This document shows, piece after piece, positions 51,692 to 64,000 of a DNA stretch of 64,000 nt. Each line of letters begins with the position of its first letter. Position 1 is the stretch's first letter. The notes beneath the pieces were generated by a model. The model made no database searches. It was not told the DNA's origin and saw nothing but the letters and a program-made list of their open reading frames with translations. Source of the stretch: Acidobacteriota bacterium. Its GTDB lineage: Bacteria > Acidobacteriota > Thermoanaerobaculia > Multivoradales > Multivoraceae. A program made the translations under genes and the position numbers. Location: NCBI GenBank assembly GCA_029263415.1, contig JAJCXN010000058.1, forward strand, positions 51,724-115,723. The letters are read 5' to 3'.

Positions 51692-51764
51692 TAATGGATA
51701 GCTCAACTGGTAGAGCACTGAACCAGGGATTCAGCTGTTGCGGGTTCGATTCCTGCTCCAACCG
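51692..51764 (+). pseudogene. Degenerate tRNA-like sequence (tRNA pseudogene or att-site remnant)
   Basis: Canonical D-arm (TAGCTCAACTGGTAGAGCA), a 5-bp anticodon stem, and a T-arm (GCGGG-TTCGATT-CCTGC). However, only 4 of 7 acceptor-stem base pairs form, the anticodon loop CCAGGGA lacks U33, and no CCA is encoded. Confidence 0.4.
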
Positions 51765-52220
51765 CGCCGCAAGGCGCACCAAAACCAAAACCGGCGGGGA
51801 CCCCGCTCAACAACAATGTTCTCGCGTTCTTTGACTTCGCAAGATGGATGGCAAGACGCGTGGCGAGACAAGTAGTGCCTTGCAACGAGGCCTCCGCTTT
51901 TCGGCAGAGCTGCAAACGCAGTCTTGAAATCTCAATGTGCGCTACGGCGCTTGACGAGCCCTAGAGATTGCGGCGCAGCAACACCGCCCAGCGAACCTCT
52001 CGTTCCGTGCTCTTGCTCCGTAGCGTTTGAGTTGGACGGGCCCCCAACGGACTTGGCATCCATTCATTAGTTCCATCTCAACACCGTCGTTTCCCACGCG
52101 GATCATCAGCTCAGCGTCGCGGATTCCCTGCGACCTCAACCGCGGTTCCTCTTTGACTTCTTGCGCAGTGCAAGAAGTTCAGGGCACTGCTCTCACACCA
52201 GCACCAAAAGGAGGTGCACC

Positions 52221-53796: not shown

Positions 53797-53961
53797 ATGT
53801 CTCCCTCCTGAGTCTGTGAATCGCGCCCTGTACTCTCGGCGCCACTCAGCGCGGAGACTGAACGGTCACGCCGCCTAGGACCGTGTTTCGAAAACACCTT
53901 GAGCGCCGAGTTCGAGGCAACTTGTTGATCCCGGGCCATTCTATCGACCCTGCCTGTGCGC

Positions 53962-54050
53962 CGTTGCCTCGCGCTGTGCCGCGCTGTGCCGTGCCGTGCC
54001 GTGCCGTGCCGAGCCGTGTTGTGCCGTGTTGTGCTGTGATGTGCTGTGCA
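53962..54050. repeat. Tandem repeat: GCGCTGTGCC x2, then about 12 pentamer units (GTGCC/GTGTT/GTGCT...)
   Basis: Seen directly in the sequence. Lies in a non-coding stretch of about 1.4 kb (53.8-55.26 kb). Confidence 0.8.
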
Positions 54051-57676: not shown

Positions 57677-57719
57677 GGCCGACACCCTTTCCGCCAAAGG
57701 TCATCTACCTTGCAAAGCG

Positions 57720-57930
57720 TCTAACGGACTCTAGTGCCGCGGCACGGCCGAACGGCGCGCGGCAACACTGGAAGCGTCGCAACAGCAACGGATCTCGTGG
57801 CCAGCTGCCCCGGAAAACGGCACCTCTCCGAACGGCCGGTCGCTGCCGAAGAGCCCAGATAGTTGGCCACTGGGAGATCGACACGGTGGTCGGTGCTGCT
57901 GCGTCAACAGAGAGTACAGAGGGCTCATAG
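57720..57930 (+). pseudogene. IS30-family transposase fragment (central DDE-domain entry segment), 5'- and 3'-truncated
   Basis: The translation ...WKRRNSNGSRGQLPRKTAPLRTAGRCRRAQIVGHWEIDTVVG matches the IS30-family consensus ...RG.lP..i.eRP..v..R...GHWEgDli.G. There is no N-terminal HTH region and no downstream catalytic core. Confidence 0.5.
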
Positions 57931-57976
57931 GCGTAGTCCTTGTCCTACCGCAGGGGTCTACTAGTGAGCCTGTGCT

Positions 57977-58052
57977 GCATAACGGCTGGAATTCAGCGCC
58001 AATGCCGGCCGCGAAGCGGACGGTGGTTGTCCGCCGCAATGATTTGTTAGGC
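57977..58052 (-). repeat. attC-like site H (76 bp)
   Basis: Ends GCATAAC...GTTAGGC. Confidence 0.45.
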
Positions 58053-58062
58053 GGCGCACAAT

Positions 58063-58443
58063 TCAACCCGTCATAGTGGGTTTTTGCAATACAGCACCGA
58101 CAATATGCGCCACTGCGGCCACAGCCAGGAGAAGCTCACCCACGAAAGGTCCCACGAAGACGAGCAGCAATACGGCATCGGCCGCGACCACGGCGGATGA
58201 CAATGCAAGCACGATTCTTGACAGGCGTGATGGCAACCATGCTGCTACCACCGCGACCACAGCTATGAACAGCCAGTGGAGGGAAGCGTACAGCCACAGT
58301 CCCTTGGCCGCAGATTGGAGGAACTCGGAAACACCCTCGGCTGAGGTGTCCCGGACGACGATGGCATACCCCGTCGCATGGAAGGCCGAGGTAGCTGCCA
58401 GGACCACCGAGCCGAACAAGACAGAGATTTGAGAGCGCTTCAT
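58063..58443 (-). CDS. Cassette ORF: small membrane protein (126 aa, 4 TM)
   Basis: Hydrophobic throughout. Followed 3' by attC H. Confidence 0.5.
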   Translation of the reverse strand: MKRSQISVLFGSVVLAATSAFHATGYAIVVRDTSAEGVSEFLQSAAKGLWLYASLHWLFIAVVAVVAAWLPSRLSRIVLALSSAVVAADAVLLLVFVGPFVGELLLAVAAVAHIVGAVLQKPTMTG

Positions 58444-58467
58444 CTACCACATACCATTGTGCGCGAC

Positions 58468-58593
58468 GCCTAACGGACTTAGCTCAGCTGCGCCGCTGGT
58501 TGGCGTGCTTAGCTTGAAATAGCGTTTCCTCATCTCCGACACTATAGTGGATTGCGCAAGCGCGGGCGGTTTCTACTGGGGCGTGTAGATATG
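58468..58593 (-). repeat. attC-like site A (about 126 bp; its 3' core is degenerate)
   Basis: Starts GCCTAAC-GGACTTAGCTCAGCTGCGCCGCTG. The 3' end reads GTGTAGA rather than a clean GTTRRRY. Confidence 0.5.
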
Positions 58594-58600
58594 CAGTCGC

Positions 58601-58804
58601 TCACGAGGCACCCAGACTCCTAAGAGCCGGGAAAGCCAACCCGGCGACAACAATGACGCCGAAGACGAGACCCTTGACTGCAAGCGACCGCAGCGATGAT
58701 CGCCAAACCTCGCCGTCATCGACCGGATTGCTCCAGCCCTCAGGCTCATCATCGTCGAGGGTGACGAGGCGTCCTATAAAGACCCAGCCCACGAGCCCAG
58801 CCAT
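58601..58804 (-). CDS. Cassette ORF: small hypothetical protein (67 aa)
   Basis: The only ORF of reasonable composition between attC A and attC B. An overlapping alternative frame exists. Confidence 0.3.
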   Translation of the reverse strand: MAGLVGWVFIGRLVTLDDDEPEGWSNPVDDGEVWRSSLRSLAVKGLVFGVIVVAGLAFPALRSLGAS

Positions 58805-58908
58805 CTACCAGATGTAAGGTAAGGCCAGCAAAGCAAGACAACGCCACCCCGACAGCGATGACTCTTCCTACTGTCCAAGACGAGAGAGCCTCATCTTCGA
58901 TCGCCGCT

Positions 58909-58974
58909 GTACAACGGACACTTAGCTCAGCTGACTGCGCCTTGGCGCCGGACTGCAGCAATTGGTTGTTGGGC
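58909..58974 (-). repeat. attC-like site B (66 bp, short class)
   Basis: Ends GTACAAC...GTTGGGC. Confidence 0.5.
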
Positions 58975-58984
58975 TGCAAACACG

Positions 58985-59245
58985 CTACTTGCGATGAACA
59001 ATCTTGTCGTATTGCCCGTGGGTTCCGATCCAGAACCATAGAAGGGTCTCGGAATCACGGACGGCCAACGAACCGGTAACGCATGCCCACGCGGACAGAC
59101 CAGAATCGACGGACTCTTTCAAGTGCAGTGAGGGATGTCTTGGGTTGGCCTTGAGCAATTCGAAGTCTGCATCTGCGAGCGAGCGCACCGACTCGGGCAA
59201 ACTGTCGTACGACGACCTGAACTCCGCGGTGGCCTGATGGTTCAA
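58985..59245 (-). CDS. Cassette ORF: RelE/StbE-family toxin
   Basis: The C-terminal segment (...LLWFWIGTHGQYDKI) is typical of RelE/YafQ/HigB-type mRNA interferases. Its start overlaps the antitoxin stop; the exact start codon is uncertain. Confidence 0.55.
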   Translation of the reverse strand: MNHQATAEFRSSYDSLPESVRSLADADFELLKANPRHPSLHLKESVDSGLSAWACVTGSLAVRDSETLLWFWIGTHGQYDKIVHRK

Positions 59246-59442
59246 AGAGGTCGGGTATCGCCCCGGCGATGGGCCGCCAAAGCGGTATCGGCGAGCCCAT
59301 CGAGCTTCCCTGCCACTACATCCCGCTCGAACCGCTCGTCCCACGCGAGCGCGTCGAATTCCTGAAACCAGTCGCGAAACCGCGAAAGTTCTCCAGGCCC
59401 CAGATTCTGCACAGCTTGGTCGATCTCTTCGATCCCACTCAT
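59242..59442 (-). CDS. Cassette ORF: small antitoxin-like addiction-module component (66 aa)
   Basis: MSGIEEIDQAVQNLGPGELSRFRDWFQEFDA...; the position and size fit a cognate antitoxin immediately upstream of the toxin. Confidence 0.5.
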   Translation of the reverse strand: MSGIEEIDQAVQNLGPGELSRFRDWFQEFDALAWDERFERDVVAGKLDGLADTALAAHRRGDTRPL

Positions 59443-59473
59443 GCCTCGATCAGACGAGATGACTGGCGCAGCA

Positions 59474-59565
59474 GCCCAACGTCTCGCGATTCTGCTGCGC
59501 CGCCCGCATGCCCGCATGCGTGTACCGACCACTTCTTCGACGTCAGTAGCAATCGTTTGTTGGAT
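59474..59565 (-). repeat. attC-like site K (92 bp)
   Basis: Ends GCCCAAC...GTTGGAT. Its arms are related (AAC..GATT.CT / AGCAATCGTTTGTT). Confidence 0.45.
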
Positions 59566-59707
59566 GGCACGGAGGCAACGCAAACCCAAGTGTTCTAACG
59601 GGGCCTGCATGGGATAATCCTGCACGTCTGGAGCAGCCGCCAGCCGCTCCGCCCAGAACGGGACGGCGGCTGGGTAGAGTGATAACGCCGCTTGCTATGG
59701 TTAGCAC

Positions 59708-60106
59708 ATGATATCGACGATTCGATCGACCTTGCGCAGCATCGGAGCCGTGCTGGCGGGTTTTGCTGTGATCGCACTGGGAACGGTCTTCACCTTCACG
59801 GTTCTGGTTGGCGACTTTGGCTACGCCACGTCCAGTCCAACCGAGCTGGTGATTGGAACTCTCGGCGCCCTGGCCTCCGGCCTCGCGGGCGGACTCGTTG
59901 CAGCCCGGCTCGCGGCAACACATCCGCTGAGGCACGCAGCCGCGCTAGTCGTGCCTATCGCGCTCGACACGGCCAGCATCGTCGCTTCGGCGGGCCAGGA
60001 ATCCGATCCGTTGTGGTTTGACCTCGGCGGCAGCGCGATCCTGCTGCTCGGCGCCTTTGTCGGGGGCTACCTGGTTGTTAAGAGACACCGCGAGCCGGCG
60101 TCCTGA
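59708..60106 (+). CDS. Cassette ORF in reverse orientation: small membrane protein (132 aa, 4 TM)
   Basis: Good hydrophobic periodicity. It is the only protein-like ORF between attC K and attC C. Confidence 0.35.
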   Translation: MISTIRSTLRSIGAVLAGFAVIALGTVFTFTVLVGDFGYATSSPTELVIGTLGALASGLAGGLVAARLAATHPLRHAAALVVPIALDTASIVASAGQESDPLWFDLGGSAILLLGAFVGGYLVVKRHREPAS

Positions 60107-60213
60107 ACTGACGCAAGGCCGGACTGGCGTACCCCACGATCTCAGTGAGGTCAGACCTGTTCAGCAACAGCTTGGTCGGCTGCTCTCGGCCAGTGGACAA
60201 GCCCGGTAATGCC

Positions 60214-60339
60214 ATCTAACGGACTTAGCTCAGCAGCGCCGATGTCGGGCGCGCTGAAGTTGAAAGTGGATGGCACATCTTCAAGAGGATAGCTGAACGC
60301 GCGAGCACGAGCGGCGACTGCTGCCGTGAGTAGTTGGGC
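60214..60339 (-). repeat. attC-like site C (126 bp)
   Basis: Ends ATCTAAC...GTTGGGC. Confidence 0.6.
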
Positions 60340-60656
60340 TGACGCCGAATCGGCGGGCACTCCAATACTGCGGCTTTTCGACTCTGCCTGGCGACCGCAA
60401 CAACTTCCACTTGGCCTTGTCCGAGAAGGCGATACACCAAGGGGTATGGGTACTGGTTGGGAAACACAAACTCGTGACAGCCGGACGGTCCGCGACGGTA
60501 TCTTCCCGGGTGCCTCGAAACCGACACCAGGCCGCGCTCTAAAGCCTGCAGGACACCGCGTGCAGCAGACAAACTGCGTTCCGCGTACCAGTCACGAGCA
60601 TCCGTGGCCTCAGCAAGAGCGGCCGGATGCCAGCGCAACTCACTCGAAGCCATCAA
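60225..60656 (-). CDS. Cassette ORF: ParE-family toxin, with no cognate antitoxin gene adjacent. The ORF reads through into attC C, so the stop has probably been lost.
   Basis: The first 95 aa or so are ParE-like (...CHEFVFPNQYPYPLVYRLLGQGQVEVVAVARQSRK). The last 40 aa or so are encoded by the conserved repeat. Confidence 0.5.
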   Translation of the reverse strand: MMASSELRWHPAALAEATDARDWYAERSLSAARGVLQALERGLVSVSRHPGRYRRGPSGCHEFVFPNQYPYPLVYRLLGQGQVEVVAVARQSRKAAVLECPPIRRQPNYSRQQSPLVLARSAILLKMCHPLSTSARPTSALLS

Positions 60657-60674
60657 ACAGCGCCGACCTCACAC

Positions 60675-60775
60675 CGCTGACACAAAGAGAATGTGACGGG
60701 CTTGCCAGTATCCTCAACGACCGACCGCGAAAGAGACTCGGATTTCGAACACCACGGGAGTGCTTTTATGGCTAG
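60675..60775 (+). pseudogene. IS30-family transposase C-terminal fragment
   Basis: ...LTQRECDGLASILNDRPRKRLGFRTPRECF* matches the IS30-family C-terminal consensus LN.RPRK.LG..TP.E.F. It sits where a ParE antitoxin gene would be expected. Confidence 0.5.
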
Positions 60776-60815
60776 CTACCGATGTTGCGCTTCAAACTTG
60801 AAGTCAGACTGCAAC

Positions 60816-61439
60816 TCAAACGAGAGCGACCGCATCGAACCCGGTTCCGACGACGTGAGAGCCACCGAAGAGAAGTGCCTTGGGTAGACACTCCTCCTTC
60901 TGGGTCGACACTGCGGCCGCAGATGCTGCTGGCTCTGCACTCAGCATCCTTGGCCGCATCTCGTGATCCAGGAGAACCTGGAAATACTTCTCGCAAACGC
61001 GCTTCGGCGCCGTCGCCAGTTGGCCGTGGCCGGCTTCAAGCAAGCTAACGATGGGCAAGCCTGTATTGACAAAACGACGAAAACGGAACCAACCTTTTGT
61101 AATGTCCTCATGCGCATTCAGGAGCCCTGCTACAACCGCGGCGGGGTCTGCCGGGGCCTGCGAAAAGTACAACGCCTTGGATGGTTCGGAGTACGGCCAG
61201 AGCAGTGGATGGGAGCTGACTAGAGAAATCCAGTCATCCCACGGACGCTCCACTGAGTAGCACAGGGCCTGCTCGCAGCTAACGCACCACATCTCATCCT
61301 GGTCGCCTCGATCTGGCCGTCTAACCATCAGCTTTAGCTCGAGCCCATCACCCTTCAAATCTAGGGAACGGAGCCGGATCCAGCCGTTGTCTTCAAACTC
61401 GTCTGACTCAACTACTGCGGCTAGATCGGAGAACGGCAT
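60816..61439 (-). CDS. Cassette ORF: hypothetical protein (207 aa)
   Basis: Unique, Trp-rich sequence (WISLVSSHPLLWPYSEP...). No family recognised. Confidence 0.45.
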   Translation of the reverse strand: MPFSDLAAVVESDEFEDNGWIRLRSLDLKGDGLELKLMVRRPDRGDQDEMWCVSCEQALCYSVERPWDDWISLVSSHPLLWPYSEPSKALYFSQAPADPAAVVAGLLNAHEDITKGWFRFRRFVNTGLPIVSLLEAGHGQLATAPKRVCEKYFQVLLDHEMRPRMLSAEPAASAAAVSTQKEECLPKALLFGGSHVVGTGFDAVALV

Positions 61440-61447
61440 CGTACGCA

Positions 61448-61530
61448 GCCCAACGGACTTTCATCACTGGCACAAACCGTAGCGAGCGCAGCGCGTGAGG
61501 GTTTGTGTCCAGTGCATGATGTTGTTAGGT
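61448..61530 (-). repeat. attC-like site G (83 bp; central hairpin CACAAACC/GGTTTGTG)
   Basis: Ends GCCCAAC...GTTAGGT. The GNAT stop codon lies within the 3' core. Confidence 0.55.
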
Positions 61531-62019
61531 GCCGCCGGCGCGGATCGCACCGTTAAGAAGAGTTCGACCGTCTTGGAACTCAACCAGCCCGAAGTCACGA
61601 TAGAGATCGAGAGCTGGCACGTTACCTTCGCCGACCTCGACGTACAGGGACTTGCAGTTCCGTTGTTCGCACTCACGGACCACCTTCTCGACCAGGGAGC
61701 GTGCGATTCCTCGGCGCCGAGACTCCGGCCTGACGTATAGGTCGTCGATGTACCCACTGAGCGCTCCATGTTCCATCGTGTAGCGCACAGTAAGTACAGC
61801 ATGCCCGGCAGGTACACCGTCTCGTTCGGCAATCCAAACGCAACCTAGCCCAGCGTCCTCCAACAACCTGACGAAGGAGGCCTTGGCCCATTCGGGGTCG
61901 AGCGCGAACTCCGATTCGGCATAGAAGTCGCGCATGAGGTCGACAAGAGCCGCGACGTCTGTACTCCCAGCTCTCCGAACAGCGAACTCGTTGACCGACA
62001 TGTTCTTTCGCGAACTCAC
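61525..62019 (-). CDS. Cassette ORF: GNAT-family N-acetyltransferase
   Basis: Acetyl-CoA binding motif A is present (YVRPESRRRGIARSLV). Confidence 0.8.
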   Translation of the reverse strand: MSSRKNMSVNEFAVRRAGSTDVAALVDLMRDFYAESEFALDPEWAKASFVRLLEDAGLGCVWIAERDGVPAGHAVLTVRYTMEHGALSGYIDDLYVRPESRRRGIARSLVEKVVRECEQRNCKSLYVEVGEGNVPALDLYRDFGLVEFQDGRTLLNGAIRAGGT

Positions 62020-62024
62020 AAGGA

Positions 62025-62150
62025 ACCTAACGGACTTAGCTCAGCTGCGCCGCTGACAGGCGCGCTGCGGCTGCAATTGAAAAGTGCATCTTCAAAAGGA
62101 TAACCGAACGCGCGAGCACCAGCGGCAACTGCTGCGGCGGATTGTTATGC
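62025..62150 (-). repeat. attC-like site D (126 bp)
   Basis: Ends ACCTAAC...GTTATGC. Confidence 0.6.
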
Positions 62151-62160
62151 GGCGCGTCGA

Positions 62161-62622
62161 TCAGAGCCAGCTCCAAACGAAGCCGAACGCGGTAACGCAA
62201 CCGACAAGCGCGAGCACCACACTGAAACGTGCCACGGAACCCAACCTTCCCGAGAGCCCCTCGAACCCTGCGTCGCGGTGAACGAGAGGAACAACGATCG
62301 CGTTGGTGCTCAGTAGAGCGATGAGCGGCCAGATCGGAAGGAAGGTGAAGGTAGAAGGAGACAAAGGAAGAGGACCGTGGCTCACGGTGAAGCGGGACAT
62401 GGCGCCGATCACCAGCGCAAGAGTCGTGAGAGACCAAATGAAGATCGGTATGCACCACGCCGATCTCGGCAGGCTGGTACCTCGCTGCCTGTAGCGCCGT
62501 AACGCCACGAAGACAACCACGGCCTCAGCCACCAGTGTGGGCCAAAAGAACTTGAGTCCCTCTAGGGAAAAACTCTCGTAAAAGGAGTCGACGATGACGC
62601 CGTACTGGTTCAACCCTCGCAA
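62161..62622 (-). CDS. Cassette ORF: membrane protein (about 150 aa). The start codon is non-ATG and uncertain.
   Basis: 4 TM helices. The nearest upstream candidate start is TTG. Confidence 0.5.
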   Translation of the reverse strand: MRGLNQYGVIVDSFYESFSLEGLKFFWPTLVAEAVVVFVALRRYRQRGTSLPRSAWCIPIFIWSLTTLALVIGAMSRFTVSHGPLPLSPSTFTFLPIWPLIALLSTNAIVVPLVHRDAGFEGLSGRLGSVARFSVVLALVGCVTAFGFVWSWL

Positions 62623-62626
62623 CGCC

Positions 62627-62752
62627 GCATAACGGACTTAGCTCAGCTGCGCCGTTGACCGGCGCGCTGCGGATGAAACTGAGATCTTCATGTCCAACAG
62701 GTTAGCGGATTGCGCCAGCACGAGCGGTGTCTGCTGCTGCGAGTTGTTGGGC
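62627..62752 (-). repeat. attC-like site E (126 bp)
   Basis: Ends GCATAAC...GTTGGGC. Confidence 0.6.
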
Positions 62753-62768
62753 CGCCGGAGCAGGAACA

Positions 62769-63086
62769 CTACACCCACGCCACAGCGAACGAGAACAGGC
62801 AGAACGAGGCGACGAACACGACTAGCCAAGCGTGATCGGCCGGCCGGAGCCTCTTCCGATAGAGCTCGTAGAGATAGAACGGGAAGCCGGAAAATCCGAC
62901 CAGCAAGAAGAGAAGAAGCGGCACCACCAACCAGCCCCCGGGCCATATCGGAGCCAAGAACGGAGGCGCTTCCCTCCCGACCCTCAACGAGAAGCCGACG
63001 GCGGCCTCGACCCAGCATGCGATGGAGCCCCAGAAAAAGAAGAGCCAGGACAACGACTGATCTTCAAGGTGCTCTTCGCGGCCCAA
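62769..63086 (-). CDS. Cassette ORF: small membrane protein (about 100 aa). The start is uncertain and may lie inside attC F.
   Basis: 2-3 TM helices. It has no ATG. Confidence 0.45.
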   Translation of the reverse strand: MGREEHLEDQSLSWLFFFWGSIACWVEAAVGFSLRVGREAPPFLAPIWPGGWLVVPLLLFLLVGFSGFPFYLYELYRKRLRPADHAWLVVFVASFCLFSFAVAWV

Positions 63087-63206
63087 CGGACTTAGCTCAG
63101 CTGCGCCGCTGACAGGCGCGCTGAAGTTGCAATTGAGTTCTTCATCGACAAAAGACTAGCTGATTGCGCGAGCACCGGCGGCGACTGCTGGGGCGAGTTG
63201 TTGGGC
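63081..63206 (-). repeat. attC-like site F (126 bp)
   Basis: Ends GCCCAAC...GTTGGGC. The heptamers are exact reverse complements. Confidence 0.6.
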
Positions 63207-63211
63207 AGCTT

Positions 63212-63562
63212 CTAGACATCGGCAAGCTCTTGCTTCCGAGGTGGGCGAATGTCTTTCAGGTTGCGCTCAGCACAGGCACCGACACGCCGATAGTTTGCCC
63301 TCGCGGTACTCAGGCTCAGTCCTCCGTTCGGACCACCTCGAACTACGTCGGCCTCGTGTTCATCCTGGCCATCGTCCTCCCAGAAGCAAACCGGACAGAT
63401 CTCGTACGCCGCGCGCTCGTCCAGAGTACGGCACATGCAACAAGGGCACCGAAGGGGCAGATTGCGCGGCGTCTCCTCCAAGCTTGTCGCGTACGCCCTA
63501 AACCAATCTCTACGACGCGCCAGTTCAGCAGCATCCTTCGAATCGCCGCCACGGCTAACCAT
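63212..63562 (-). CDS. Cassette ORF: CPCC-family cysteine-rich protein
   Basis: CPCCMCRTLDERAAYEICPVCFWEDDGQDE matches the CPCC/DUF4262-like small-protein signature. Confidence 0.65.
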   Translation of the reverse strand: MVSRGGDSKDAAELARRRDWFRAYATSLEETPRNLPLRCPCCMCRTLDERAAYEICPVCFWEDDGQDEHEADVVRGGPNGGLSLSTARANYRRVGACAERNLKDIRPPRKQELADV

Positions 63563-64000
63563 GAGCTTGCTGGTGACTGCCCAACTACTTACTCACTTGC
63601 AGGATAACGAACACTCCTGTTTTCGATCACTGCGCCTTTTCCGCAGCGATTACTTTCTCGGCCCGGCTACAAACCGCGCGTCCACCCTTTGGCAGTAGGG
63701 GTTATCGCGTTCTCCGGTATCTTGCCATACCGCACTACACTGCGTGAATCGCAGCGTAGTGTGAGGAGGAAGATCACGCAGTCCTTTCGTTTTCATTATT
63801 CGTCGAGTGGGCTCCGGATACCGGTGGCGCCCAGGCCGGCAACATGGGTGTAGACCATCGTTGAACGAAACCGCTGACGCGGTAGCTCCTGCTTCTCCTC
63901 CTTCTTCCTGACAGTTCCTCGAGCGCTGGCCATAGCGGTGGCGGCTACGGTGGGAGTTTGTCTCGCGCAATGGAGCGCGTTTCAAACGAGAGGAGTCCCA

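What the first reader, a model, noticed from the sequence alone, without database searches (positions are those of the whole stretch)
57977..63206. Integron-type gene-cassette array (nine or more attC-like sites) in a high-GC chromosome
Between about 58.0 and 63.2 kb there are at least nine imperfect-palindrome repeats, 66-126 bp long. They separate small ORFs that are mostly on one strand.

- Conservation: four copies (C, D, E, F) are exactly 126 bp. They share a conserved 5' block (AACGGACTTAGCTCAGCTGCGCCGCTGACAGGCGCG) and 3' block (GCGAGCAC.GGCGGCGACTGCTG...GAGTTGTTGGGC), with a variable centre.
- Boundaries: every copy is bounded by RYYYAAC at one end and GTTRRRY at the other. The two arms are reverse-complementary, with bulges. 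This is the architecture of integron attC recombination sites, not of CRISPR, REP or IS inverted repeats.
- Cargo: typical cassette contents, namely toxin-antitoxin modules, a GNAT, a CPCC protein and small membrane proteins. Several cassette ORFs lack canonical ATG starts.

Integron arrays are well known in Vibrio, Xanthomonas and Pseudomonas, but they are uncommon in high-GC delta/myxobacteria-like genomes. This attC family is visibly distinct.
Basis: partly seen in the sequence, partly recalled or inferred. Interest (0 to 1): 0.85.

Follow-up and report, generated by a model that had tools for sequence, protein, structure and literature searches.

The report
Chromosomal integron cassette array, Acidobacteria-type
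This is a real integron gene-cassette array: about ten small genes, each followed by a hairpin recombination site, next to the stump of an integron integrase gene in an Acidobacteria-like chromosome; it is a well-known kind of element and its sites match a published Acidobacteria model, so it is ordinary.

Summary
Nine imperfect-palindrome sites of 66-127 bp lie at 57977-63206, four of them exactly 126 bp. A tenth, truncated site lies at 57716-57727.

They are integron attC sites.
- The outer 7 bases at the high-coordinate end of each site pair perfectly with the low-coordinate end of the next site up, not with their own site (7 of 8, against 1 of 8). That offset is the footprint of IntI crossover at AA|C.
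- Seven of the nine fold with two unpaired bases at positions 16 and 23 of the 3' arm, as in canonical attC sites.
- The sequence profile of a published Acidobacteria attC model aligns end to end with five sites, on the predicted strand.
- The last 21-30 codons of an integron integrase lie about 210 bp from the first cassette, on the cassette strand (the known "inverted" layout). Nothing further upstream in the window resembles the integrase, so it is truncated or disrupted.

- The recombining bottom strand is the + strand.
- The host looks like Acidobacteriota (Thermoanaerobaculia-like), not myxobacteria.
- Chromosomal attC sites are already described for that phylum.

The array shows decay: one dead site, IS30 fragments and an orphan ParE. 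It is a new member of a known kind, and interest is low.

The parts
63799..63888 (-). 3' remnant of an integron integrase gene (intI). The last 21-30 codons read ...STMVYTHVAGLGATGIRSPLDE, followed by a TAA stop at 63798-63796. There is an in-frame stop at 63984-63982, and 63889-64000 shows no IntI similarity in any frame.
   Evidence: NCBIfam TIGR02249 'integron integrase', model positions 285-313 of 315, E 1.9e-4; the second hit is also an integron integrase. The best PDB match is VchIntIA 2a3v residues 288-318. In a tblastn of IntI1 against the whole window, the best hit is IntI1 308-328 against 63864-63802, 62% identity, E 2.5e-4. Codon map.
63585..63798 (-). Region between the intI stop codon and the first cassette boundary: the putative attI. 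The crossover point lies between 63585 and 63584 (GCCCAA|C on the + strand at 63579-63585).
   Evidence: GCCCAAC at 63579-63585 is perfectly complementary to GTTGGGC of site I, as expected for the start of the first cassette. The region does not fold as an attC hairpin. That it functions as attI is inferred, not tested.
63081..63206 (+). attC site I, 126 bp. The + strand is the recombining bottom strand. It belongs to cassette 1 (63087-63584).
   Evidence: (12 of 13 geometry pairs). Acidobacteria attC profile hit covers model 1-106 at exactly 63206-63081 on the minus strand, 8.3 bits.
62627..62752 (+). attC site H, 126 bp. It belongs to cassette 2 (62633-63086).
   Evidence: (11 of 13). Profile hit at 62752-62627 on the minus strand, 6.4 bits.
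62025..62150 (+). attC site G, 126 bp. It belongs to cassette 3 (62031-62632).
   Evidence: (11 of 13). Profile hit at 62150-62025 on the minus strand, 10.7 bits, E 0.035.
61448..61530 (+). attC site F, 83 bp. Its helix sequence differs from the 126-bp family but its geometry is the same. It belongs to cassette 4 (61454-62030).
   Evidence: 13 of 13 geometry pairs, unpaired C at position 16 and T at position 23..
60214..60339 (+). attC site E, 126 bp. It belongs to the composite cassette 5 (60220-61453).
   Evidence: (12 of 13). Profile hit at 60339-60214 on the minus strand, 2.9 bits.
59474..59565 (+). attC site D, 92 bp. It belongs to cassette 6 (59480-60219).
   Evidence: 12 of 13, unpaired C at 16 and T at 23..
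58909..58974 (+). attC site C, 66 bp, a short and irregular hairpin. It belongs to cassette 7 (58915-59479).
   Evidence: Hairpin. Its GTTGGGC is perfectly complementary to GCCCAAC of site D. It did not pass the geometric descriptor.
58468..58594 (+). attC site B, of the 126-bp family. The 5' arm is intact. The 3' arm has diverged and the GTT core has mutated to GAT, so the site is probably dead. It belongs to cassette 8 (58474-58914).
   Evidence: (families D2, D4).
57977..58052 (+). attC site A, 76 bp. It belongs to cassette 9 (57983-58473).
   Evidence: 11 of 13, unpaired C at 16 and T at 23. GTTAGGC pairs with GCCTAAC of site B. Profile hit at 58052-57977 on the minus strand, 5.1 bits.
57716..57727 (+). 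Truncated terminal attC ('Z'). Only GTCTAAC plus GGACT is left, fused to an IS30 fragment. This is the distal end of the array, 40 bp after the stop codon of the flanking histidine-kinase gene (57676).
63212..63562 (-). Cassette 1 ORF, 116 aa, cysteine-rich CPCC protein.
   Evidence: Pfam PF14206, E 8e-27.
62769..63086 (-). Cassette 2 ORF, up to 105 aa, hydrophobic, no family match. Only TTG start codons are available.
62161..62622 (-). Cassette 3 ORF, 153 aa, hydrophobic, no family match.
61525..62019 (-). Cassette 4 ORF, GNAT acetyltransferase (called as 158 aa from the ATG at 62001 in the Logan assembly). Its stop codon lies inside attC F.
   Evidence: Pfam PF00583, E 6e-21.
60816..61439 (-). 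Cassette 5 first ORF, 207 aa, no family match.
60225..60656 (-). Cassette 5 second ORF, ParE-like toxin domain (residues 7-94). It has no antitoxin gene upstream and reads on through attC E, so it is probably decayed.
   Evidence: Pfam PF05016, E 3e-11.
59708..60106 (+). Cassette 6 ORF, 132 aa membrane-like protein. It is the only ORF on the opposite strand.
   Evidence: (called in the Logan assembly).
58985..59442 (-). Cassette 7: two small ORFs overlapping by 4 nt (66 aa at 59242-59442, 86 aa at 58985-59245). The layout resembles a toxin-antitoxin pair, but neither matches a family.
58601..58804 (-). Cassette 8 ORF, 67 aa, no family match.
58063..58443 (-). Cassette 9 ORF, 126 aa, hydrophobic, no family match.
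57730..57904 (+). Fragment from the middle of an IS30-family transposase gene, in the decayed distal end of the array.
   Evidence: NCBIfam NF033563, model positions 90-146 of 267, E 5e-4.
60668..60775 (+). C-terminal fragment of an IS30-family transposase gene, between the 207-aa ORF and the ParE-like ORF. It sits where the 207-aa cassette's own attC should be.
   Evidence: tblastn hits genes annotated as IS30 family transposase on plasmids, best E 1e-5, 1905 records. The Logan contig L088 ends at about 60784.

Best explanation
Positions 57716-63888 hold a sedentary chromosomal integron of the 'inverted integrase' layout, in an Acidobacteriota-like genome.

**Layout, read on the minus strand.** The order is: the 3' end of intI, about 210 bp of putative attI, nine cassettes, and a decayed tenth. 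Each cassette is a short and mostly promoterless-looking ORF followed 5-16 nt later by an attC site.

**Mechanism (established integron biology).**
- The bottom strand of an attC, here the window's + strand, folds into an imperfect hairpin.
- The hairpin has a 7-bp R box, an unpaired spacer, an L box with two extrahelical bases on the arm opposite the AAC, and a variable loop.
- The tyrosine recombinase IntI binds that hairpin and cuts between A and C of 5'-AAC-3'.
- IntI then exchanges strands with attI (insertion) or with another attC (excision).

**Shown here.** The hairpins and their geometry, the crossover footprint at every cassette boundary, the match to a published attC profile, and the integrase remnant.

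**Inferred.** That these cassettes were moved by an IntI, that 63585-63798 is attI, and that expression comes from upstream of the array.

**Present state.** Within the window, only the last 21-30 codons of the local integrase survive. One attC has lost its GTT core. IS30 fragments interrupt two sites. So the array is probably no longer mobilised by its own integrase. By IntegronFinder's definitions it would be called a CALIN with an intI pseudogene. It could still be acted on in trans if the genome has another IntI.
For: 1. **Cassette register.** For 8 sites, the GTTRRRY end pairs with the RYYYAAC of the next-higher site in 7 of 8 cases perfectly, and in the eighth with one G.T. It pairs perfectly with its own RYYYAAC in only 1 of 8. 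Permutation p is about 1e-4.
2. **Geometry taken from the literature** (PMC5027507): unpaired bases at positions 16 and 23/24 of the 3' arm of the bottom strand, 6 bp apart.
   - A descriptor of this geometry hits 7 of 9 sites on the + strand and none on the minus strand of the region.
   - It gives 11 scattered hits in the other ~123 kb of strand, so about 0.5 would be expected in the region.
   - It finds 8 of 11 known class 1 attC sites, all on the bottom strand.
3. **Consensus fold.** RNAalifold on the 126-bp family gives the same hairpin, with unpaired columns equal to positions 16 and 23.
4. **Pair counts on the arm alignment.** 91.3% of cells are paired and 13 of 20 pairs show changes on both sides. 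None of 500 shuffles reaches this, and slid controls give 24-48%.
5. **Published model.** I used the profile HMM inside the Acidobacteria attC covariance model of Ghaly et al. 2021.
   - Its top four hits in the window are full-length and coincide to the base with sites G, I, H and A, on the minus (top) strand; site E also hits.
   - 200 shuffled windows give 0.26 hits of at least 5.1 bits and none of at least 10.7 bits.
   - The same profile hits class 1 attC sites on their top strand.
6. **Integrase remnant.**
7. **Layout is known.** The inverted layout is described in PMC3607928 and PMC3575428.
8. **Cassette content.** The cassette ORFs are unrelated to each other. Cassette sizes are 441-1234 bp, and GC content matches the host.
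9. **Strand stability.** The + strand folds more stably than the minus strand in 7 of 9 sites.
Against: - The official IntegronFinder attC covariance model and the full Ghaly model could not be run. Only the sequence profile was used, and its individual E-values are weak (0.035 to 10).
- A small covariance model that I built from five class 1 attC sites found nothing significant in the window. It also missed 4 of 6 known sites it was not trained on, so this says little.
- Sites B and C do not fit the geometry.
- My descriptor and the arm alignment were set up after I had seen the sites.
- The integrase evidence is about 30 residues at the edge of the window. Whether a full gene lies beyond 64000 is unknown.
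- No sigma-70-like promoter was found near the putative attI. This is uninformative for this phylum.
Confidence: 0.88

Rival explanations
1. A complete, currently active integron. On this view the integrase is intact, and either it is interrupted by an insertion whose end lies near 63889, or the break is an assembly error, and the rest of the gene lies beyond the window end.
For: - The cassette-end complementarity is almost perfectly preserved, which argues against long neglect.
- Only 112 nt upstream of the remnant are visible.
- Short-read assemblies of the same sample break at these repeats, so misassembly near repeats is conceivable.
Against: - None of the three frames of 63889-64000 matches the integron-integrase model or IntI1. 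This stretch should hold the most conserved part of the enzyme, HxLRHxFAT...LLGH.
- There is an in-frame stop at 63984-63982.
- LGH reads LPR in the aligned part.
- Other decay is present in the array: a dead attC B, IS30 fragments, and an orphan ParE.
Confidence: 0.15
2. A REP- or MITE-like family of palindromic intergenic repeats that happens to be locally clustered and is unrelated to integrase recombination.
For: The units are imperfect palindromes that lie between genes. One orphan 12-mer, CCCAACGGACTT, lies 5.7 kb away at 52043.
Against: - Outside the array, the 24-mer has no copy in the other 58 kb of the window.
- REP or MITE copies would not show end complementarity offset by exactly one unit.
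- They would not show strand-specific unpaired bases at positions 16 and 23.
- They would not match an attC profile end to end.
- They would not sit next to an integrase remnant.
- There were no exact 24-mer hits in 185,579 species-representative genomes or in the JGI metagenomes.
Confidence: 0.02
3. A CRISPR array, a tandem gene duplication, or a chance cluster of hairpin terminators.
For: The repeats are regularly interspersed.
Against: - The repeats are 66-127 bp and only 74-80% alike. The segments between them are 300-1100 bp and carry ORFs.
- The ORFs share no similarity with each other.
- Rfam finds no CRISPR repeat family.
Confidence: 0.01

Closest known systems
Chromosomal attC sites and integrons of Acidobacteria, as modelled by Ghaly et al. 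2021 (PMC8352920, taxon-specific covariance model from 120 attC sites)
   Same: - The top-strand consensus starts GCCUAAC-AACUC and ends GC.GCU.A.CU...CGUU.GGC, and the window's sites share both.
- Model length is about 106 positions.
- The model has an unpaired g/c at top-strand position 16, which is C/G on the bottom strand, as in the window's sites.
- Five window sites align end to end with the model.
   Different: - The L-box helix sequence differs: GCC.CAGCAG here against GUU.AAGCG in the consensus.
- The spacer on the other arm is 7 nt rather than 6.
- Profile scores are low, 3-11 bits.
- The paper reports only 30% sensitivity for this heterogeneous phylum model.
Integrons of the 'inverted integrase' group, for example Treponema denticola (PMC3607928, PMC3575428)
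   Same: [quoted passage not shown] The element is chromosomal and sedentary, and its cargo is mostly of unknown function.
   Different: Here the integrase is only a 3' stump within the window, and the host phylum is different.
CALIN elements, meaning clusters of attC sites lacking an integron integrase (Cury et al. 2016, PMC4889954)
   Same: There are at least two attC sites on one strand and no intact intI nearby. That paper found intI pseudogenes next to 15 of 279 CALIN, and IS elements in a quarter of integrons.
   Different: An attI-side junction and an integrase remnant are still recognisable, so this is a degraded complete integron. It is not a set of cassettes inserted at a secondary site.
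Vibrio cholerae superintegron repeats (VCRs)
   Same: The attC sites are long (about 126-133 bp) and mutually similar, with a long variable loop. Toxin-antitoxin-type cassettes are present.
   Different: - This array has about ten cassettes rather than well over a hundred.
- attC identity is 74-80%, and four sites are unrelated to the main family.
- Orientation relative to intI is the opposite.
- The unpaired bases are C/G and A/T rather than G and T.

Membership tests
Integron attC site | R boxes: 5'-RYYYAAC-3' at one end and 5'-GTTRRRY-3' at the other, with the AAC/GTT core conserved | tested here: met
   AAC is present in 9 of 9 sites and GTT in 8 of 9; site B has GAT. The full degenerate motif is met in 6 of 9 (RYYYAAC) and 7 of 9 (GTTRRRY).
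Integron attC site | Length of 57-141 bp and an imperfect hairpin with an unpaired central spacer and a variable terminal structure | tested here: met
   Lengths are 66-127 bp. Hairpins appear. The spacer is 7-8 nt on the 5' arm and 5 nt on the 3' arm.
Integron attC site | Extrahelical bases on the bottom-strand arm opposite the AAC, at about positions 16 and 23/24, separated by a 6-bp stem (PMC5027507) | tested here: met
   Seven of nine sites fit on the + strand only, and decayed site B fits weakly by hand. As a positive control, 8 of 11 class 1 sites fit. The base identities differ from the usual G and T: C, G or T at position 16, and T or A at position 23.
Integron attC site | A hit by a curated attC covariance model (IntegronFinder attC_4, or the Ghaly 2021 taxon models) | tested here: inconclusive
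   Only the profile-HMM half of the published Acidobacteria model could be run. It hit five of nine sites end to end on the expected strand at 2.9-10.7 bits, above the shuffled background. The structure-aware models themselves could not be run.
Integron cassette array | Each cassette's first bases (after the G|TT crossover) complement its own attC inverse core, so complementarity is offset by one unit in the array | tested here: met
   7 of 8 are perfect and 1 has a G.T in the cassette register, against 1 of 8 in the same-site register; p about 1e-4. Four R-box pairs show changes on both sides across cassette boundaries.
Integron cassette array | At least two attC sites within 4 kb on one strand, with ORFs co-oriented and placed upstream of their attC | tested here: met
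   Nine sites lie within 5.2 kb, all with the same polarity. Ten of eleven ORFs are on the top strand and end 5-16 nt before their attC.
Complete integron (IntegronFinder definition) | A nearby intI gene: a tyrosine recombinase (PF00589) with the IntI-specific additional domain | tested here: not met
   Only the last 21-30 residues match. No PF00589 hit was found. The window ends 112 nt upstream of the remnant, so an interrupted gene cannot be excluded.
Complete integron | A functional attI site and Pc promoter | not testable with these tools
   attI sequences are not conserved between integron classes. A junction with the right crossover sequence is present at 63579-63585. No sigma-70 consensus was found.
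Integron | IntI-dependent excision and insertion of cassettes | not testable with these tools
   This needs reads or experiments.
REP / MITE repeats | Many copies dispersed in intergenic regions across the genome | tested here: not met
   There are no copies of the 24-mer outside the array in this 64-kb window. The rest of the genome is not available.
CRISPR array | Near-identical direct repeats of 21-48 bp separated by unique spacers of similar size | tested here: not met
   The repeats are 66-127 bp, palindromic and 74-80% alike. The segments between them are 300-1100 bp and coding.

The most novel reading that the evidence does not exclude
The most novel reading still open concerns the main attC family here. 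It has a C-type rather than G-type first extrahelical base, an A rather than T as the second in three sites, a conserved GGACTT spacer, and a T.T mismatch inside the 6-bp stem. This family could mark a lineage-specific IntI in deep-branching Thermoanaerobaculia-like Acidobacteriota whose strand-selection contacts differ from those of the studied enzymes. Separately, the IS30-family elements may specifically target folded attC sites in this lineage.
Probability: 0.12. Interest if true: 0.4.

Novelty: new member of a known kind. Interest (0 to 1): 0.22.

Why it matters
The finding adds one more sedentary integron to a poorly sampled lineage. The nearest species-representative genome shares only 65% RNase G identity.

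It is also a clean textbook example. The one-unit offset in end complementarity can be read directly from the sequence, and the integrase decay can be seen alongside it.

The cargo is a GNAT, a CPCC protein, small membrane proteins and toxin-like genes. That is typical of such arrays and mostly of unknown function.

It does not open a new question. Chromosomal integrons are reported in roughly 17% of bacterial genomes (PMC5027507, as quoted), and Acidobacteria attC sites already have a published model.

Tried and rejected
1. **Extending past 64000.**
   - Exact-product look-ups failed for the CPCC protein (two start choices), the 45-aa intI stump and a 111-aa ORF.
   - The two look-ups that did return contigs gave only short Logan contigs from SRR15505518 that break at the repeats.
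   - One search used wrong coordinates and was repeated.
2. **Homology search** with the 61-aa integrase fragment found no candidates.
3. **Looking for the attC family elsewhere.**
   - The 24-mer has 0 hits in genome contigs and in metagenome contigs.
   - A 16-mer plus gap plus GTTRRRY gave 2 hits. Both are the same non-palindromic coding-like sequence, so they are chance matches.
4. **My own covariance model.** A model from five class 1 attC sites gave a best E of about 1 in the window. It misses four of six known sites it was not trained on, including all the long ones it was tested on, so the result is uninformative. MAFFT alignments of 7-11 known attC sites were mis-registered and were not used.
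5. **A tenth attC at 63579-63706?** It scored 11 of 13 with a loosened descriptor but does not fold as a hairpin, so I rejected it. I treat this region as the attI side.
6. **Other frames of 63889-64000** for IntI motifs: none found.
7. **Similarity of the window end** to the rest of the window, looking for IS ends: none found.
8. **Family searches** for the two-ORF pair in cassette 7 and for the small membrane ORFs: nothing found.
9. **Promoter scan** near the putative attI: nothing found.
10. **GTTGGCC at 57862** is not an attC end. It is part of the IS30 coding sequence (IVGHWE).

Full report
**1. What is in the sequence**

On the + strand each begins with a RYYYAAC-like heptamer and ends with a GTTRRRY-like heptamer:
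- A 57977-58052 (76 bp)
- B 58468-58594 (127 bp)
- C 58909-58974 (66 bp)
- D 59474-59565 (92 bp)
- E 60214-60339 (126 bp)
- F 61448-61530 (83 bp)
- G 62025-62150 (126 bp)
- H 62627-62752 (126 bp)
- I 63081-63206 (126 bp)

E, G, H and I form one family at 74-80% identity. B is a decayed member of the same family. A, C, D and F have different sequences.

The shared 24-mer occurs five times in the window and never in shuffles. YAACGGACT occurs nine times against 0.74 expected. One of those extra copies, at 57722, belongs to a truncated tenth site: GTCTAACGGACT at 57716-57727.

The segments between sites carry eleven ORFs, ten of them on the minus strand. The ORFs are unrelated to one another. Pfam recognises a CPCC protein, a GNAT acetyltransferase and a ParE-like domain. 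The rest match nothing.

**2. The footprint of integrase recombination**

An integron integrase cuts between A and C of AAC. As a result, in an array the outer six bases of each attC belong to the neighbouring cassette. A cassette's own two ends should therefore be complementary to each other, while the two ends of one site in the array need not be.

That is what the sequence shows. The GTTRRRY end of a site pairs with the RYYYAAC of the next-higher site perfectly in 7 of 8 cases, and with one G.T in the eighth. It pairs perfectly with its own RYYYAAC in only 1 of 8 (permutation p about 1e-4).

The last partner, for site I, is a lone GCCCAAC at 63579-63585. That marks the boundary between the first cassette and the attI side. 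A REP, MITE, CRISPR or terminator family would not produce this one-unit offset.

**3. Hairpin geometry and strand**

Nivina et al. 2016 (PMC5027507) define the recombining bottom strand as follows. The AAC is on the 5' arm. The extrahelical bases are on the opposite arm, near positions 16 and 23/24 counted from the 3' end. A 6-bp stem separates them, and the spacer is 5-6 nt.

I wrote a descriptor of exactly this geometry, requiring at least 11 of 13 pairs.
- It hits seven of the nine sites on the + strand and none on the minus strand of the region.
- It gives 11 scattered hits in the remaining ~123 kb of strand, so about 0.5 would be expected in the region.
- As a positive control I fetched four class 1 integrons from plasmids. 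The descriptor finds 8 of their 11 known attC sites, always on the bottom strand as defined by gene orientation.

Two further checks agree.
- RNAalifold on the 126-bp family independently returns the same hairpin, with unpaired columns at positions 16 and 23.
- On an arm-only alignment in the cassette register, 91.3% of cells pair and 13 of 20 pairs show changes on both sides. No shuffle reaches this, and slid controls give 24-48%. I built that alignment to fit the structure, so this is corroboration, not independent proof.

The + strand is also the more stable fold in 7 of 9 sites.

The + strand is therefore the bottom strand, and the minus strand is the top strand carrying the ORFs.

**4. 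Test with a published attC model**

IntegronFinder's model is not available here. However, supplementary file 3 of Ghaly et al. 2021 (PMC8352920) contains the text of their taxon-specific covariance models. One of them was built from 120 chromosomal attC sites of Acidobacteria.

I transcribed the profile-HMM part of that model and ran nhmmer on the window.
- The four best hits are full-length alignments whose envelopes coincide to the base with sites G (10.7 bits, E 0.035), I (8.3), H (6.4) and A (5.1). All are on the minus strand. Site E also appears.
- In 200 composition-preserving shuffles of the window there were 0.26 hits per window of at least 5.1 bits, and none of at least 10.7 bits.
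- The same profile hits the class 1 attC sites on their top strand, so the orientation call is meaningful.

The alignments show what is shared: GCCYAAC-AACTC-G...AGC.G.CG.CGC at the start, and G.CGC.GCT.A.CT...CGTT.GGC at the end. The model's unpaired position 16 is g/c on the top strand. That corresponds to C/G on the bottom strand, which is what these sites have. So the odd-looking C at position 16 is a phylum trait, not a novelty.

This is a sequence-only test. The structure-aware score could not be computed.

**5. The integrase**

The minus strand from 63864 to 63799 reads STMVYTHVAGLGATGIRSPLDE, followed by a stop codon.
- Among 18,950 NCBIfam models, the best two matches are both integron integrase: TIGR02249 positions 285-313 of 315, E 1.9e-4.
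- The best PDB match is VchIntIA.
- IntI1 translated from a plasmid locus finds this as its best hit in the whole window, at 62% identity and E 2.5e-4.

The remnant lies about 210 bp from the first cassette boundary and on the cassette strand. This is the layout of the 'inverted integrase' group known from Treponema and others.

Upstream of about 63889, none of the three frames matches an integrase, although the most conserved motifs should be there. There is also an in-frame stop at 63984-63982.

Within the window the gene is therefore a stump. The window ends 112 nt further on, so I cannot say whether the rest was deleted or displaced by an insertion. All attempts to extend the sequence failed.

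**6. Host and prior knowledge**

The window is ordinary chromosome. It carries RNase G, PBP2, a SurA/PpiD-like protein, aspartokinase-homoserine dehydrogenase and lipid A acyltransferase, at an even 58-65% GC.

RNase G is closest to Acidobacteriota / Thermoanaerobaculia MAGs at 64-65% identity. Delta-type lineages are at about 45%. This rests on one marker gene.

Chromosomal attC sites in Acidobacteria, CALIN elements with intI pseudogenes, and IS elements within integrons are all documented.

**7. State of the array**

Signs of decay:
- the integrase stump;
- site B, with GAT in place of GTT;
- the truncated site Z, fused to a mid-gene IS30 fragment;
- a C-terminal IS30 fragment sitting where the attC of the 207-aa cassette should be;
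- a ParE-like ORF with no antitoxin gene that reads on through attC E.

Against long neglect, the cassette-end complementarity is nearly perfect.

My reading is a sedentary integron that lost its own integrase fairly recently. Confidence that this is an integron array is 0.88. Confidence that the integrase is truly dead, rather than interrupted with the rest just out of view, is about 0.65.

**8. Verdict**

The strand label, the host guess and the claim of rarity are wrong.

This is a new member of a known kind, and interest is low. No copy of the attC 24-mer exists in the species-representative genomes or in the JGI metagenomes. That fits an under-sampled lineage rather than a new type of element.

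Noticed in passing
57730-57904 (+) and 60668-60775 (+): Two fragments of IS30-family transposase genes lie inside the array, in the same orientation and 2.8 kb apart. One is from the middle of the gene and one is the C-terminus. Each sits where the body of an attC should be, which suggests IS30 insertion into attC hairpins followed by deletions. GTTGCGC at 60789-60795 may be the leftover end of the attC of the 207-aa cassette.
   Followed up: partly
60225-60656 (-): The ParE-like toxin ORF has no antitoxin gene upstream. It continues about 45 codons past the domain and through attC E, so it is probably a decayed toxin-antitoxin cassette.
   Followed up: partly
51695-51760 (+): A tRNA-like sequence scores 43 bits with Rfam RF00005 (model positions 4-67 of 71) but is not called by ARAGORN. 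It may be a truncated or pseudo tRNA, about 6 kb from the distal end of the array.
   Followed up: no
52043-52054 (+): An orphan CCCAACGGACTT is identical to the RYYYAAC-plus-spacer start of attC sites F and I. It has no matching 3' arm nearby. It could be a relic site or chance.
   Followed up: partly
53950-54050: A tandem run with a period of 5 or 10 nt (GCCGT/GTGCC-type), about ten units long, lies inside or next to a 206-aa minus-strand ORF.
   Followed up: no
L001 and L088 (Logan contigs from SRR15505518): Short-read contigs from the same sample carry identical genes. They end at the 126-bp attC repeats, at about window 60240 and 62057, and also at about 60784 next to the IS30 fragment. 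This implies that these sequences are repeated, or at least unresolvable, in that assembly.
   Followed up: partly
59708-60106 (+): The ORF of cassette 6 is on the strand opposite to all the other cassette ORFs, although its attC (site D) has the same polarity as the rest. It would need its own promoter.
   Followed up: no
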